Part shown: one piece after another, positions 1 through 2,864 of the stretch | Position numbering within the stretch: position 1 is the stretch's first letter | How the letters are laid out: the number at the start of each line of letters is the position of its first letter | Virus record (IMG/VR): IMGVR_UViG_2703718818_000005 | Span: 1-5,663 of that record | Source of the DNA: a virus | Taxonomy: Duplodnaviria > Heunggongvirae > Uroviricota > Caudoviricetes | Length of the DNA: 5,663 nt | Strand: one strand, 5' to 3' | Position numbers and translations under genes: made by a program | Notes under the pieces: generated by a model | Seen by the model: the letters and a program-made list of their open reading frames with translations, nothing else | Told to the model about the DNA's origin: nothing | The model's database searches: none

Positions 1-60
1 GGTCAGGTATCCCGTCGTGACCAGGAGCGCGCGCTGGCGTGCTGGGGAATCGACAGATAA
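1..60 (+). CDS. 3' end of an upstream gene, probably a phage endolysin (lysozyme-like C-terminus); 5' part lies outside the window
   Basis: Frame 1 reads GQVSRRDQERALACWGIDR then TAA at 58-60. The RR-x-x-ER-x-x-x-C-W-G tail resembles C-termini of lambdoid prophage lysozymes such as RrrD/R21-type, recalled from memory. Its position upstream of Rz/Rz1 fits a lysis cassette. Only 19 codons are visible, so the call is weak. Confidence 0.4.
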   Translation, partial: GQVSRRDQERALACWGIDR

Positions 61-166
61 GCAGAATATTTTGCTGAAAAATGACGTTGATCAACGCGGG
101 CAGATAACACGAAATCCTGCAAACTGGCAAAATGTAAGTGAATAAAGTCAGGCAGATTGTTTCACG

Positions 167-199
167 CAGAGGCACCGTAATGGTGCCTTTGTCATTTAT
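167..199 (+). terminator. Terminator-like hairpin downstream of the endolysin-like gene
   Basis: Inverted repeat AGGCACC (170-176) / GGTGCCT (182-188) with loop GTAAT, extendable to a 10-bp stem (167-191) with one G-U pair, followed by the T-rich run TTGTCATTTAT. The U-tract is interrupted, so this is at best a weak intrinsic terminator. Confidence 0.3.
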
Positions 200-333
200 G
201 CGCTTCGCACAAGCGTAAATAAACCAAAGAACCTTTCAGGATGAGCCCTGGTGGATAACCGGCAGTGGTCTGGTTAACCCTCTTTGGGCTGGTTATTCCT
301 GTGCGCAGGGTTCATCACTAAAAGGAATCAACC

Positions 334-1029
334 ATGAAAGAGATGATTTCTGTCGATCATGAAATATCCATGAGTAGTCTGGATTTTCTGAATAACATTA
401 TTAACCCTATCCGGGTTGAGGCAGGGAAACCACCTCATGAACCGCGTAAGTTCCTTGCAAAAATTGAGGACGAACTTGAGCTTGAGGTAACCTGGAAAAA
501 ATTCCGGTTAAACAATAACCAGACAAGAACGGCATACTATGATCTGGATTTTGACCAGATGATGCTCGTTGGCATGAGAGAGTCAAAGGCCGTTCGTCGT
601 TCTGTGCTGGCAAGGCTCAAAGCGATGCATGGTATTCAGATCCCCCGGACTTTACCTGAGGCGTTGCGATTTGCGGCAAAACTGGCAGAACAGAAAGCAG
701 TGCTGGAAAATCAACTGGCAATAGCAGCGCCGAAGGCTGAATTTGTTGATAACTATGTTGAAGCATCTGGTCTGATGGGATTCCGGGAAGTTGCTAAGTT
801 ACTCGGTATCAAAGAAACCGATTTCCGGCTGTTTTTGTTGGAGAACGGAATAATGTATCGCCTCGCTGGAAAAATGACGCCTTACTCGCATCACCTGGAT
901 GCGGGGCGGTTTAGCGTGAAAACGGGCGAGGCGGGCAATGGTCATGCTTTTACGCAGGTTAAATTCACCCCAAAAGGTGTTCAGTGGATTGCTGGTCTGC
1001 TTGCTGCATGGAGAGCTACCGCAGCATGA
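334..1029 (+). CDS. Phage antirepressor-like protein with a C-terminal KilAC (ANT) domain; N-terminal domain unassigned (possibly Rha/AntA-like)
   Basis: 231-aa ORF with ATG at 334 and an AAGGA Shine-Dalgarno 7 nt upstream. The C-terminal half (VAKLLGI...FRLFLLENGIMY...PYSHHLDAGRFSVK...FTQVKFTPKGVQWIAGLL) matches the pattern I recall for KilAC domains (AK-LG, P-x-Q/H, G-F, T-x-KG-x-x-I). Needs an HMM search to confirm. Confidence 0.75.
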   Translation: MKEMISVDHEISMSSLDFLNNIINPIRVEAGKPPHEPRKFLAKIEDELELEVTWKKFRLNNNQTRTAYYDLDFDQMMLVGMRESKAVRRSVLARLKAMHGIQIPRTLPEALRFAAKLAEQKAVLENQLAIAAPKAEFVDNYVEASGLMGFREVAKLLGIKETDFRLFLLENGIMYRLAGKMTPYSHHLDAGRFSVKTGEAGNGHAFTQVKFTPKGVQWIAGLLAAWRATAA

Positions 1030-1121
1030 AGATGATAAAAATGGACTGGAAATTTTTGCTGGTCTGGCTGATTCCGTTTTTATGGGTGGTTGCCCGGTTA
1101 ATTACTGCTATTAATGGGTAA
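1026..1121 (+). CDS. Candidate micro-ORF, 31-aa single-pass membrane peptide (MKMIKMDWKFLLVWLIPFLWVVARLITAING)
   Basis: ATG at 1026 overlaps the stop of the upstream gene (ATGA). It has a Lys-rich N-terminus followed by a ~20-residue hydrophobic helix and a TAA stop at 1119-1121. No clear Shine-Dalgarno; translational coupling would be needed. Not in the ORF track because of its size. Confidence 0.3.
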   Translation: MKMIKMDWKFLLVWLIPFLWVVARLITAING

Positions 1122-1123
1122 AG

Positions 1124-1255
1124 ATGTCAGACAAACTCATAATGCTGGCGAAGGGCCTTTGTGTAATCGTCGGTATTTCATTTTCACTAATGCTGGTTGT
1201 TCTTTTTCTTTCCATAGCCTGGATGGCGTTGAGTTCGGCAGGGCTGGTGGGGTGA
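1124..1255 (+). CDS. Candidate micro-ORF, 43-aa hydrophobic peptide (MSDKLIMLAKGLCVIVGISFSLMLVVLFLSIAWMALSSAGLVG)
   Basis: ATG at 1124 lies 2 nt after the stop of the previous micro-ORF; TGA at 1253-1255. Almost entirely hydrophobic, giving one long or two short transmembrane segments. It competes with the N-terminal part of the 86-aa track ORF 1114-1374 in another frame. Confidence 0.35.
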   Translation: MSDKLIMLAKGLCVIVGISFSLMLVVLFLSIAWMALSSAGLVG

Positions 1256-1257
1256 CA

Positions 1258-1374
1258 GTGACTGATGACGACAATTTATTTAAACAGATGAGTACTGAAT
1301 TTATTCGGGCAACGGCATTTGCCATTCGCATTGTGGCAATTGCGGTTCTAATCCGGGAAATCCGCTGGTGGTGA
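1258..1374 (+). CDS. Candidate third micro-ORF (GTG start at 1258 or ATG at 1288), amphipathic/hydrophobic peptide ending ...MSTEFIRATAFAIRIVAIAVLIREIRWW
   Basis: Same frame as the 86-aa track ORF. GGTGGGG lies just upstream of GTG 1258. Its stop TGA 1372-1374 sits 1 nt before the methylase ATG. Start and reality are uncertain. Confidence 0.2.
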   Translation: MTDDDNLFKQMSTEFIRATAFAIRIVAIAVLIREIRWW

Positions 1375-1375
1375 A

Positions 1376-2143
1376 ATGAATAATAACTCTGCAAAACCGT
1401 TTCTCCCGTGGTTAGGAGGGAAGCGTCGTCTGGCAAAACATATTCTGCCGTTATTTCCTGAGCACACTCTGTATGTGGAACCGTTCTGTGGCGGTGCGGC
1501 ACTGTTCTTTATGAAAAAACCGAGCTGCGCTGAAATCATCAACGATATAAACAGTGATATCGTTAATCTCTACCGTGTGGTGAAGTACCACCAGGAGGAA
1601 TTTTCCCGCCAGTTTCAGTGGATGCTCGCCAGTCGTGAGATGTGGAATGAGGTGATAAATCAGCACACGGAGTACATGACGGATATCCAGCGGGCTGTCC
1701 GTTTCTTTTTTATCCAGAAGTGCGCGTATGGCGGAAGAGCATACAGTCGGGCATTTGGAGTTAAAACTCACAGACCGCAGATAATCCCCGGGAATACAGA
1801 GCAGTTATTGCAGGAAGCCCGTGATCGGCTGGCGCGGGCAACTATTGAACACCTTGACTGGGAGGTCTGTATCGCACGGTATGACCGCCCGACAACGCTG
1901 TTTTACTGCGATCCTCCGTATTGGTTGGATGGTGGTTACGGCATTGATTTTTCATTCTGCAATTATGAGCGCATGGCAGAACTTGCCCGCACAATAAAAG
2001 GCAAAATGATTATATCCCTGAACGATACGCAGGAAATGAGACGATTGTTTGAGGGGATGAATATTCATCATGTTGCTCATCGTTATACTGTACCACGTGG
2101 TAAGACAAGCAGTGTCAGCGAGCTGATAATCTGCAATTTCTGA
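1376..2143 (+). CDS. Dam-family (D12 class) N6-adenine DNA methyltransferase, phage-borne orphan methylase
   Basis: 255-aa ORF. N-terminal PWLGGKRRL, AdoMet-binding motif I FCGGAALFF (about 1485-1511) and catalytic motif IV DPPY at codons 179-182 (nt 1910-1921). No restriction endonuclease partner is visible in the window. Confidence 0.9.
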   Translation: MNNNSAKPFLPWLGGKRRLAKHILPLFPEHTLYVEPFCGGAALFFMKKPSCAEIINDINSDIVNLYRVVKYHQEEFSRQFQWMLASREMWNEVINQHTEYMTDIQRAVRFFFIQKCAYGGRAYSRAFGVKTHRPQIIPGNTEQLLQEARDRLARATIEHLDWEVCIARYDRPTTLFYCDPPYWLDGGYGIDFSFCNYERMAELARTIKGKMIISLNDTQEMRRLFEGMNIHHVAHRYTVPRGKTSSVSELIICNF

Positions 2144-2151
2144 CAGGGGGC

Positions 2152-2628
2152 ATGGTGAGCATAAACCGAATTCTTTCCGCGTTTACTGTTATTCTGCTGG
2201 TGGTCTGTGGTGCGCTTAGTCTGGGGCTGAATCATTACCGCGATAACGCCATCACCTACAAAGCGCAGCGCGATAAAAAAGCCAGAGAGCTGGAACAGGC
2301 GAATGCCACCATTACTGACATGCAGGTGCGCCAGCGTGATGTTGCTGCGCTCGATGCAAAATACTCGAGGGAATTAGCCGATGCGAGAGCTGAAAATGAA
2401 ACTCTGCGCGCTGATGTTGCCGCTGGTCGTAAGCGCCTGCGGATCAACGCCACCTGCTCCGGTACCGTGCGTGAAGCCACCGGCACCTCCGGCGTGGGCA
2501 ATGATGCCGCCGTCGAACTCTCTCCGGTTGCTGGACGAAACGTTCTCGGTATCAGAGACGGAATCATCAGCGACCTGGCTGCATTGAGAATGCTTCAGGA
2601 ATATATCCGCACTCAGTGTATTAACTAG
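2152..2628 (+). CDS. Rz: Rz-like i-spanin (inner-membrane spanin subunit)
   Basis: 158 aa. An N-terminal transmembrane helix (ILSAFTVILLVVCGALSLGL) is followed by NHYRDNAITYKAQRDK...MQVRQRDVAALDAKY...DVAAGRKRL, which is near-colinear with lambda Rz as recalled. GGGGG Shine-Dalgarno before ATG 2152, 8 nt after the methylase stop. Confidence 0.92.
   Translation: MVSINRILSAFTVILLVVCGALSLGLNHYRDNAITYKAQRDKKARELEQANATITDMQVRQRDVAALDAKYSRELADARAENETLRADVAAGRKRLRINATCSGTVREATGTSGVGNDAAVELSPVAGRNVLGIRDGIISDLAALRMLQEYIRTQCIN
2381..2587 (+). CDS. Rz1: Rz1-like o-spanin (outer-membrane lipoprotein), embedded in the +1 frame of Rz
   Basis: 68-aa ORF wholly inside Rz. Signal peptide MRELKMKLCALMLPLVVSAC with lipobox V-S-A-C (Cys codon 2438-2440), then a proline-rich mature part CGSTPPAPVPCVKPPAPPAW that parallels lambda Rz1 CVKPPPPPAW. 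GAGGGA lies 8 nt upstream of ATG 2381; ATG 2396 is an alternative start. Confidence 0.85.
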   Translation: MRELKMKLCALMLPLVVSACGSTPPAPVPCVKPPAPPAWAMMPPSNSLRLLDETFSVSETESSATWLH

Positions 2629-2651
2629 TATTTTTGTTATTCGGAGAATGC

Positions 2652-2864
2652 ATGAAGAAATTACTGGTAACCGTAAAGCCTTTTCAGGGAACAATTCCGT
2701 TCCGTATTTTGCAGCGTGGTCGTGTTCTTGTTGAAGGTTCGTTCAGTGGTAAATGTACGCAATTACACTCCCGGACCTTTCAGGTGAATGCCACGAATGA
2801 AGAGCTAACCGTTGAGTGTACGATGAATGCCGCTAAATGCCGCATGGTATCCGCTGCATTTTGA
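2652..2864 (+). CDS. Hypothetical 70-aa protein between the spanins and cos (MKKLLVTVKPFQGTIPFRILQRGRVLVEGSFSGKCTQLHSRTFQVNATNEELTVECTMNAAKCRMVSAAF)
   Basis: ATG at 2652 with a GGAGAA Shine-Dalgarno 6 nt upstream; the track ORF begins at an in-frame TTG at 2634. No family recognised by eye. Three Cys, no obvious signal peptide. Confidence 0.5.
   Translation: MKKLLVTVKPFQGTIPFRILQRGRVLVEGSFSGKCTQLHSRTFQVNATNEELTVECTMNAAKCRMVSAAF

What the first reader, a model, noticed from the sequence alone, without database searches (positions are those of the whole stretch)
334..1029. KilAC-domain antirepressor-like gene located inside the lysis region rather than the immunity region
The C-terminal half has the KilAC/ANT signature as I recall it, while the N-terminal ~100 residues are not confidently assignable. 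Antirepressors normally act on the prophage repressor from early or immunity-associated loci. One sitting in the Q-dependent late operon between endolysin and spanins would be expressed only late, when derepression is moot. That suggests a different target, such as a heterologous repressor in a co-resident prophage (cross-induction) or a host factor.
Basis: partly seen in the sequence, partly recalled or inferred. Interest (0 to 1): 0.45.

Follow-up and report, generated by a model that had tools for sequence, protein, structure and literature searches.

The report
Ant-like gene with hidden RNA leader
The gene is a real and already annotated antirepressor-like gene sitting among a prophage's lysis genes, and the new point is that a conserved folded RNA, also found in front of phage P22 rha, precedes it and probably keeps its translation switched off by default.

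Summary
ORF 334-1029 (231 aa) has a KilAC/ANT domain (Pfam E=2.7e-28, residues 125-224). It lies between the R endolysin stop (58-60) and Rz/Rz1 (2152-2628).

The arrangement is not new. The same R-ant-Rz layout is annotated in Stx1 phages, and the gene occurs in 229 of 5,426 complete E. coli genomes.

The unassigned N-terminal half has no Pfam match but is homologous to phage P1 antirepressor Ant1 (37% identity over 220 aligned columns).

The premise that such genes belong near immunity regions fails for this family. Eight of 11 sampled relatives sit right after non-homologous lysis genes. In addition, 99%-identical copies ride with unrelated repressors.

The unexpected result lies upstream. 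A terminator-like hairpin (168-197) is followed by a ~140-nt conserved pseudoknotted leader (195-336) that pairs the Shine-Dalgarno sequence with an anti-SD. Covariation is strong, and no Rfam family matches.

The same leader precedes other Ant/Rha-type genes, including P22 rha. Its core there equals the 89-nt RNA "P22F", reported in 2026 with no known function.

The protein's target and the leader's trigger remain untested.

The parts
1..60 (+). 3' end of the R endolysin (lysozyme) gene, stop codon at 58-60
   Evidence: Aligned to annotated lysozyme genes ending at this position in Lys8385Vzw, PhiR5_1 and phi-O153; sequence read
61..146 (+). Spacer after R that is also present in prophages whose R-Rz slot is empty
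   Evidence: The empty-site prophage L015 matches window 1-146 and then resumes at window 2194
147..346 (+). 5' flank of the cassette, shared by the KilAC-type and the P22_AR_N-type ant genes
   Evidence: L014 and L012 (P22_AR_N-type ant) match window 1-346 and 1-338 at 93-94% identity, then diverge
168..197 (+). Terminator-like hairpin (GGCACC/GGTGCC stem) followed by TTTGTCATTT
   Evidence: Read. A hairpin plus T-run stands at the same place in all 8 lysis-linked loci, with different stem sequences. The consensus terminator scan did not report it
195..336 (+). Conserved structured RNA leader (~140 nt) that ends at the ant start codon
   Evidence: Covariance model R1: 121 bits, E=1e-25. Covariation: 92.8% of cells paired against 74.9% in shuffles, 26 of 34 pairs with double changes; 90.9% against 70.5% and 28 of 34 on an independent IMG/VR set. 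No Rfam family
200..216 (+). Leader hairpin H1 (GCGCT...AGCGT)
   Evidence: Helix 1. It is mostly invariant GCGC/GCGC, so it could equally be a DNA inverted repeat
224..230 (+). 5' strand of the pseudoknot (CCAAAGA); pairs with 281-287
   Evidence: A 6-8 bp helix in 23 of 24 distinct leaders, with 14 different helix sequences; pairing score 6.7 within a sequence, 4.4 across sequences, 3.7 shuffled
281..287 (+). 3' strand of the pseudoknot (TCTTTGG), in the apical loop of the long hairpin
232..236 (+). Anti-Shine-Dalgarno sequence CCTTT
   Evidence: Pairs with 321-325 in the RNAalifold and covariance-model structures
321..326 (+). Shine-Dalgarno sequence AAAGGA, 8 nt upstream of the ATG, predicted to be paired
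   Evidence: Probability that the SD is unpaired: 0.005 against 0.33 with shuffled upstream sequence
334..1029 (+). ant-like gene, 231 aa: N-terminal domain, linker helix, KilAC domain
   Evidence: AlphaFold2 model with mean pLDDT 75.7 and two domains
370..630 (+). N-terminal domain (residues 13-99). No Pfam family; homologous to P1 Ant1 residues ~124-205
424..558 (+). Swappable sub-segment of the N-terminal domain (residues ~31-75), found as two alleles
   Evidence: Identity in these blocks drops to 13-46% while nearly all flanking blocks stay at 73-100% identity
706..1005 (+). KilAC/ANT domain (residues 125-224)
   Evidence: Pfam PF03374, E=2.7e-28
1124..1255 (+). 43-aa hydrophobic ORF (phrog_4906); forms the 3' flank of the cassette
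   Evidence: PHROG E=1.7e-23. Window 1115-1268 matches the region downstream of the P22_AR_N-type ant at 76% identity. Annotated in several records
1376..2143 (+). Dam-type D12 N6-adenine DNA methyltransferase, a separate insertion (about 1256-2153)
   Evidence: Pfam PF02086 E=4.4e-27 and TIGR00571. Absent from L013 and present in L012
2152..2628 (+). Rz i-spanin, with the Rz1 o-spanin embedded at 2381-2587
   Evidence: Pfam PF03245 E=3.2e-39 and PF06085 E=6.8e-21

Best explanation
ORF 334-1029 encodes a functional two-domain phage regulator of the P1-Ant/KilAC class. It is one interchangeable occupant of a mobile cassette: terminator-like hairpin, ~140-nt leader RNA, regulator gene, small membrane ORF. 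The cassette sits just after the endolysin in late operons of enterobacterial temperate phages.

Proposed mechanism:
- Transcription comes from read-through of the Q-antiterminated late transcript across the upstream hairpin. No promoter of its own was found.
- The leader then folds into a long hairpin closed by an anti-SD:SD helix and locked by a pseudoknot. The default state is therefore little or no Ant translation. An unknown cue (a host factor, a metabolite or RNA processing) would be needed to open it.
- Once made, the protein most likely binds and inactivates a repressor-type DNA-binding protein by protein-protein contact, as P1 Ant does. Residues ~31-75 of the N-terminal domain would act as the exchangeable specificity element.
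- The same allele travels with unrelated immunity regions. The target is therefore probably not restricted to the cognate repressor. It could be a broad set of lambdoid repressors, or the repressor of a co-resident prophage.

Shown here: gene identity, domain homology, purifying selection, cassette structure, the leader's conservation and covariation, and the predicted SD occlusion.

Inferred: late read-through transcription, translational gating, antirepressor activity and the target.
For: Domain and family:
- Pfam ANT E=2.7e-28; PHROG 63 'anti-repressor Ant' over the full length.
- 37% identity to P1 Ant1 residues 124-341, covering both domains, E=3e-35. P1 Ant1/Ant2 are cited as known antirepressors in PMC9043618.
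- dN/dS 0.05-0.24.

Cassette:
- Identical 5' and 3' flanks around two non-homologous Ant types in the same R-Rz slot.
- 8 of 11 sampled family members sit after lysis genes of at least four endolysin families and before different terminases.

Leader:
- Covariance-model hits end exactly at start codons in 27 + 53 places.
- Covariation 92.8% and 90.9% paired against 74.9% and 70.5% in shuffles, and 31-43% in slid controls.
- Covarying pseudoknot.
- SD unpaired probability 0.005 in the window, and a mean of 0.12 against 0.46 across 23 leaders.
- The leader is present upstream of P22 rha. Its core equals the experimentally detected 89-nt RNA P22F (PMC13397905).

No promoter and no LexA box upstream.

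Same Ant allele (99% identical) with unrelated repressors.

The N-terminal sub-segment exists as two swapped alleles.
Against: - No experiment addresses this protein. The only tested Stx-phage 'Ant' (phi24B, PMC3064807) is a different gene upstream of qut.
- KilAC is not diagnostic of antirepression. In Listeria AriS it inhibits the SOS response. Roi and KilA carry it too.
- SD occlusion is a thermodynamic prediction and is weak in some leaders (L018 0.52, L020 0.41).
- The promoter scan is a crude consensus search, so an atypical promoter is not excluded.
- The 89-nt P22F RNA could simply be a stable decay product.
Confidence: 0.5

Rival explanations
1. SOS/RecA dampener. As in Listeria AriS, the KilAC domain would down-regulate the host SOS response. 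Made late, it would stop further RecA-dependent induction of co-resident prophages. That is competition, the opposite of cross-induction.
For: Azulay et al. 2022 (PMC9043618): the KilAC domain alone blocks SOS gene induction and lysis when overexpressed, and this is conserved in AriS-like proteins with different N-terminal domains. The window protein has a bona fide KilAC domain. Its linkage to the late module rather than to a particular repressor fits a host target.
Against: The AriS effect was seen only on overexpression; deletion mutants showed wild-type SOS levels. The evidence comes from Firmicutes. The full-length similarity here is to P1 Ant, not to AriS-type architectures (AntA, Bro-N or pRha N-terminal domains; none detected).
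Confidence: 0.15
2. DNA-binding transcription regulator of the Rha/Roi type. The protein would bind DNA through winged-helix domains and alter host or phage transcription late in infection. It would be harmful if over-made, which would explain the tight translational leash.
Against: The fold matches are modest and Foldseek found nothing significant. There is no detectable pRha or KilA-N domain. The closest characterised full-length relative is an antirepressor.
Confidence: 0.2
3. The leader is not a regulatory switch. It would be a structured spacer that protects a long untranslated stretch of the late mRNA from Rho and RNases, or a recombination linker. The 89-nt RNA would be only a stable decay remnant, and Ant would be translated constitutively at a low level.
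For: The leader precedes functionally unrelated genes (TerB-like, HNH_3, a 66-aa ORF), which argues against gene-specific feedback. P22F was found by small-RNA sequencing, with no function shown. The cassette flanks coincide with mosaic joints.
Against: Simple spacers or linkers do not need a covarying pseudoknot plus invariant anti-SD:SD pairing that ends exactly at start codons. Copies of the same gene family in early operons do without it.
Confidence: 0.15

Closest known systems
Phage P1 antirepressor Ant1/Ant2 (immI operon)
   Same: 37% identity over 220 aligned columns (window residues 22-223), covering both the N-terminal domain and the KilAC domain. Control by RNA at the translation step is a shared theme; in P1 this is the c4 RNA, which I recall from established knowledge.
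   Different: P1 ant lies in immI behind icd, not in a lysis cassette. Ant1 has ~120 extra N-terminal residues. No C4-type RNA is detected here (Rfam). The leader acts in cis by SD pairing, not through an antisense RNA.
Phage P22 Rha (orf201), a late-operon gene between lysis gene 15 and terminase gene 3
   Same: Same genomic slot and the same leader RNA (101.7 bits). It is a late-operon regulator-like protein whose mis-expression is harmful.
   Different: Different protein: pRha + ORF11CD3 domains against novel N-terminal domain + KilAC.
P22_AR_N-type 'Ant' between R and Rz in O157:H7 and other E. coli prophages
   Same: Exactly the same slot, the same 5' flank and leader, and the same downstream small ORF.
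   Different: Non-homologous protein of 189 aa with P22_AR_N + ORF11CD3 domains.
Listeria phage AriS and AriS-like KilAC proteins
   Same: C-terminal ANT/KilAC domain joined to an exchangeable N-terminal regulatory domain.
   Different: AriS N-terminal domains are AntA/AntB, Bro-N or pRha; none is detected here. The shown activity is SOS inhibition in a Gram-positive host. The genomic position differs.
phi24B Ant / Roi-type proteins of Stx phages (nin region, upstream of qut)
   Same: C-terminal half related (about 40% identity to residues 102-219). Proposed to speed up derepression after induction.
   Different: Different locus (delayed-early, before pR'), different N-terminal half, no leader motif.

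Membership tests
Pfam ANT / KilAC domain (PF03374) | HMM match above the curated gathering score | tested here: met
   98.9 bits against a cut-off of 25.3; residues 125-224 cover profile positions 1-106 of 108
P1 Ant1/Ant2-type antirepressor | Full-length sequence homology, beyond the KilAC domain | tested here: met
   BLASTP 37% identity, E=3e-35, query residues 22-223 against Ant1 124-341. P1 KilA aligns only from residue 103
P1 Ant1/Ant2-type antirepressor | immI-type context: c4 antisense RNA, icd, then ant | tested here: not met
   The gene lies between R and Rz. No icd-like ORF. No Rfam C4 match at E<=10
P1 Ant1/Ant2-type antirepressor | Non-covalent binding and inactivation of the phage repressor | not testable with these tools
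   Needs pull-down, two-hybrid or reporter assays
P22 Ant (P22_AR_N / P22_AR_C) | P22_AR_N and P22_AR_C domains | tested here: not met
   Only PF03374 is found in the window protein. P22_AR_N is found in the alternative occupant of the slot
Rha family (Phage_pRha, PF09669) | pRha domain at the N-terminus | tested here: not met
   No Pfam hit for residues 1-133 at E<=10. hhalign against pRha proteins aligns only the KilAC part
AriS-like dual-function regulators | KilAC C-terminal domain plus an AntA/AntB, Bro-N or pRha N-terminal domain; SOS inhibition | tested here: inconclusive
   KilAC is present. The N-terminal domain is none of the three. The activity is not testable here
Classical moron (own promoter, gene, downstream terminator) | Sigma-70 promoter immediately upstream and a terminator downstream | tested here: not met
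   No + strand promoter-like site in 1-333 and no terminator-like site reported between 1029 and 1376. The terminator-like hairpin lies upstream of the gene
LexA-controlled antirepressors (Gifsy / 186 Tum type) | LexA box in the upstream region | tested here: not met
   CTGT-N8-ACAG with up to 1 mismatch: none in 1-333
Any Rfam 15 RNA family (for the leader) | Covariance-model match at or near the gathering score | tested here: not met
   No hit at E<=1 in the whole window. Only far sub-threshold noise at E<=10 in the leader and in the P22 copy
SD-sequestering translational leader (riboswitch-, thermometer- or operator-like) | Conserved structure that pairs the SD, supported by covariation | tested here: met
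   Anti-SD:SD pairs are invariant or change on one side only (C-G to U-G); 26-28 of 34 pairs show compensatory changes; SD unpaired probability 0.005
SD-sequestering translational leader (riboswitch-, thermometer- or operator-like) | A defined ligand, factor or condition that opens the structure | not testable with these tools
   Needs probing and reporter assays. IHF dependence of P22 rha is only a lead

The most novel reading that the evidence does not exclude
The ~140-nt pseudoknotted leader is a new class of cis-acting translational switch, responsive to a ligand or a host factor. It would gate a whole set of interchangeable late-operon regulators (KilAC-Ant, P22_AR_N-Ant, Rha, AntA, TerB-like) in P22-like, Stx and other enterobacterial temperate phages. 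It would be the missing molecular basis of the old observation that Rha expression depends on host state (IHF). It would also decide whether an induced prophage releases antirepressor-type proteins that act on co-resident prophages.
Probability: 0.3. Interest if true: 0.75.

Novelty: new variant of a known kind. Interest (0 to 1): 0.55.

Why it matters
The gene itself is ordinary: an annotated Ant-like gene common in STEC prophages. Two things make the locus worth attention.

First, pathogenic E. coli carry many lambdoid prophages, and Shiga toxin output depends on prophage induction. A late-expressed, non-cognate antirepressor or SOS modulator would be a direct route for prophage-prophage cross-talk.

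Second, the leader is a strongly covarying, pseudoknotted RNA that hides the SD and is absent from Rfam. It sits in some of the best-studied phages (P22, Stx phages). It has been seen experimentally only as an unexplained 89-nt RNA. It is short and is found in phages that can be manipulated genetically. It precedes genes whose mis-expression is reported as harmful (Rha). These features make it readily testable as a new regulatory RNA. It also corrects a likely mis-annotated start codon of P22 rha.

Tried and rejected
- LexA box upstream, as in Gifsy or 186 antirepressors: none.
- Sigma-70 promoter upstream: none on the + strand by consensus scan. By eye the -10-like stretch after hairpin H1 is not conserved.
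- Rfam, including C4 and IsrK-type RNAs: nothing.
- PDB sequence search: no relative, best E=0.24.
- Foldseek against PDB: nothing at E<=0.001.
- pRha or KilA-N identity for the N-terminal domain: not detected.
- NCBIfam: no family for Ant.
- Known EHEC prophage sRNAs: AgvB/AsxR paper has no mention of lysis, endolysin or antirepressor genes; Pas sRNAs flank the esterase/holin region, not this intergenic region.
- The phi24B 'Ant' experiments turned out to concern a different gene upstream of qut.
- Stx-phage genome surveys mention Ant only as an annotation.
- Leader peptides in 199-333: the short ORFs are not conserved across loci (read).
- The Henthorn and Friedman 1995 rha paper could not be retrieved.

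Full report
**What is in the window.** All clear genes are on the + strand and form the late region of a lambdoid, Stx-phage-like prophage.
- The last 60 bases of the R lysozyme gene, with the stop at 58-60.
- A 273-bp non-coding gap.
- ORF 334-1029 (231 aa).
- Two tiny ORFs (1026-1121 and 1124-1255).
- A Dam-type methylase (1376-2143).
- Rz (2152-2628) with Rz1 embedded (2381-2587).
- After a further gap, Nu1 and the large terminase subunit.

**The observation.** It is confirmed.
- Pfam places residues 125-224 in ANT/KilAC (PF03374) at E=2.7e-28.
- The first 133 residues match no Pfam family even at E<=10.
- The gene is real. It has over a thousand database homologs with the same 231-aa architecture across Enterobacterales.
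- dN/dS against relatives is 0.05-0.24.

**The N-terminal half can be assigned by homology.**
- The whole protein aligns to PHROG 63 'anti-repressor Ant'.
- It aligns to residues 124-341 of phage P1 Ant1 at 37% identity, E=3e-35, starting at query residue 22.
- P1 KilA shares only the KilAC part.
- An AlphaFold2 model (mean pLDDT 75.7) shows two compact alpha/beta domains, residues 13-99 and 147-230, joined by a long helix.
- Foldseek finds nothing significant in the PDB.
- No solved structure is related by sequence.

**The arrangement is not new.**
- The same R-ant-Rz layout at 96-97% identity is annotated as 'ant' or 'putative antirepressor' in Stx1-converting phages such as phi-O153 and Lys8385Vzw.
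- The gene is present in 229 of 5,426 complete E. coli genomes, including EDL933.
- The R-Rz slot exists in three states:
  - empty;
  - occupied by this KilAC gene;
  - occupied by a non-homologous 189-aa 'Ant' with P22_AR_N + ORF11CD3 domains.
- Both occupants share the same 5' flank (window 147-346) and the same 3' flank (the small ORF at about 1115-1268). This is a cassette with exchangeable cargo.
- The Dam gene is a separate insertion. No complete E. coli genome holds 80% of window 1-2700 in one place.

**The premise that such genes belong near the immunity region does not hold for this family.**
- I sampled 11 contexts. Eight lie directly after lysis genes and before the terminase.
- Those modules are otherwise unrelated. 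The endolysins are GH24 lysozyme, M15 peptidase, GH108 and GH19, and there are at least five terminase types.
- Three lie in early or nin regions.
- Ant proteins that are 99% identical sit in an EDL933 prophage with a 139-aa HTH repressor and in an O145:H28 prophage with an unrelated 234-aa XRE/cI-type repressor.
- The gene therefore travels with the late module and not with a particular immunity specificity.

**The unexpected part is upstream of the gene.**
- Lysis-linked copies always have 160-320 bp of non-coding DNA in front. Early-operon copies have at most 76 bp.
- This upstream DNA is conserved across genera although the neighbouring lysis genes are not.
- It consists of a terminator-like hairpin with a T-run (window 168-197) followed by a ~140-nt element.
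- RNAalifold folds the element into a short hairpin plus a long interrupted hairpin. The base of the long hairpin pairs CCUUU (232-236) with the Shine-Dalgarno AAAGG (321-325).

**Covariance-model searches (model R1, built from eight sequences).**
- It found 27 matches in 98 loci and 53 matches in 80 IMG/VR loci.
- All matches are on the coding strand and end at a start codon.

**Covariation.**

| Set | Cells paired | Shuffled | Partner slid | Pairs with changes on both sides |
|---|---|---|---|---|
| First set | 92.8% | 74.9% | 31-43% | 26 of 34 |
| IMG/VR set | 90.9% | 70.5% | 34-43% | 28 of 34 |

One caveat applies: these alignments were fitted to the model. However, the first RNAalifold run on a plain MAFFT alignment already showed 15 of 31 pairs with compensatory changes.

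**Pseudoknot.**
- The 6-8 nt just 5' of the anti-SD pair with the apical loop, at window 224-230 with 281-287.
- This helix is present in 23 of 24 distinct sequences, with 14 different helix sequences.
- The pairing score is 6.7 within a sequence, 4.4 across sequences and 3.7 for shuffled sequences.

**SD occlusion.**
- In the window the predicted probability that the SD is unpaired is 0.005, against 0.33 with shuffled upstream sequence.
- Over 23 leaders the means are 0.12 and 0.46.

No Rfam family matches.

**The leader is not specific to this gene.** It also precedes the following genes.

| Downstream gene | Where |
|---|---|
| P22_AR_N-type Ant | L012, L014 |
| Rha-family gene after Rz, in the same Stx1 phage | L001 5765-5904 |
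| AntA-domain gene | L016 |
| pRha-KilAC gene | L069 |
| HNH_3 gene | L020 |
| TerB-like gene downstream of Q and the tRNAs | L104, L105, L076 |
| Phage P22 rha | L103 3004-3147, 101.7 bits |

- In P22 the motif ends at an in-frame ATG (L103 3145), 23 codons inside the annotated rha ORF. The true start is therefore probably that ATG.
- A 2026 small-RNA survey of P22 infection reports an 89-nt RNA, P22F. Its sequence is exactly the core of this motif, and its 3' end lies 6 nt from the rha start. It is listed as 'no known function' (PMC13397905).
- P22 rha is described as a late-operon gene that is detrimental to lytic growth without IHF, which regulates it (PMC4936722).

**How it most likely works.**
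- No sigma-70 promoter or LexA box is detectable upstream.
- The gene is therefore most simply transcribed by Q-modified polymerase reading through the upstream hairpin. This step is inferred.
- The leader then hides the ribosome-binding site, so translation is off or low unless something opens the fold. This is also inferred; the structure itself is shown.
- The protein resembles the P1 antirepressor over its full length and has a swappable 45-residue sub-segment in its N-terminal domain. It is best read as a trans-acting inhibitor of repressor-type proteins that is not tied to the cognate repressor.

**Alternatives I cannot exclude.**
- AriS-like dampening of the SOS response by the KilAC domain (PMC9043618).
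- A Rha/Roi-like DNA-binding role.
- The only experimental work on a Stx-phage 'Ant' (phi24B) concerns a different gene upstream of qut (PMC3064807).

**Verdict.**
- The real addition is the conserved leader RNA shared with P22 rha. It changes the expectation from 'expressed late' to 'transcribed late, translation gated'.

Noticed in passing
window 195-336 (also L103 3004-3147, L001 5765-5904, L016 7354-7483, L020 2488-2621, L104 15439-15572): A ~140-nt pseudoknotted, SD-sequestering leader RNA stands in front of many different late-operon accessory genes (KilAC-Ant, P22_AR_N-Ant, Rha, AntA, HNH_3, TerB-like). It is not in Rfam. Its core equals the 89-nt P22F RNA reported in 2026.
   Followed up: yes
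L103 3076-3681 (phage P22 rha, NC_002371 39575-40180): The annotated rha start lies inside the conserved leader. The motif ends at an in-frame ATG 23 codons downstream (L103 3145), preceded by the SD, so this ATG is probably the real start.
   Followed up: partly
window 253-299: GGATAACCGG (253-262) can pair either with the nearby CTGGTTAAC (271-279) or with the distal CTGGTTATTCC (290-299). The same duplicated partner is visible by eye in divergent leaders, which hints at two mutually exclusive folds (a switch).
   Followed up: no
window 424-558 (Ant residues ~31-75): This sub-segment of the N-terminal domain occurs as two very different alleles (13-46% identity per block) inside otherwise 73-100% identical proteins. 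It may be an exchangeable specificity element.
   Followed up: partly
window 1256-2153: A Dam-type adenine methylase is inserted inside the lysis cassette between the small ORF and Rz. The combination KilAC-ant + dam was not found in any of 5,426 complete E. coli genomes; dam occurs there with the P22_AR_N-type ant instead.
   Followed up: partly
window 1124-1255 (and 1026-1121): A 43-aa hydrophobic ORF (phrog_4906, unknown function) is conserved downstream of both ant types and forms the 3' edge of the cassette. A 31-aa ORF overlapping the ant stop is annotated in one phage record.
   Followed up: no
window 168-197: A hairpin plus T-run stands in front of the leader in all eight lysis-linked loci compared, with different stem sequences. 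It looks like an intrinsic terminator placed inside the late operon, upstream rather than downstream of the accessory gene.
   Followed up: partly
L104 and L105, about 15.4-16.0 kb: In non-Stx lambdoid prophages a TerB-family gene carrying the same leader lies downstream of Q and the tRNA genes, ahead of the esterase and holin genes.
   Followed up: no
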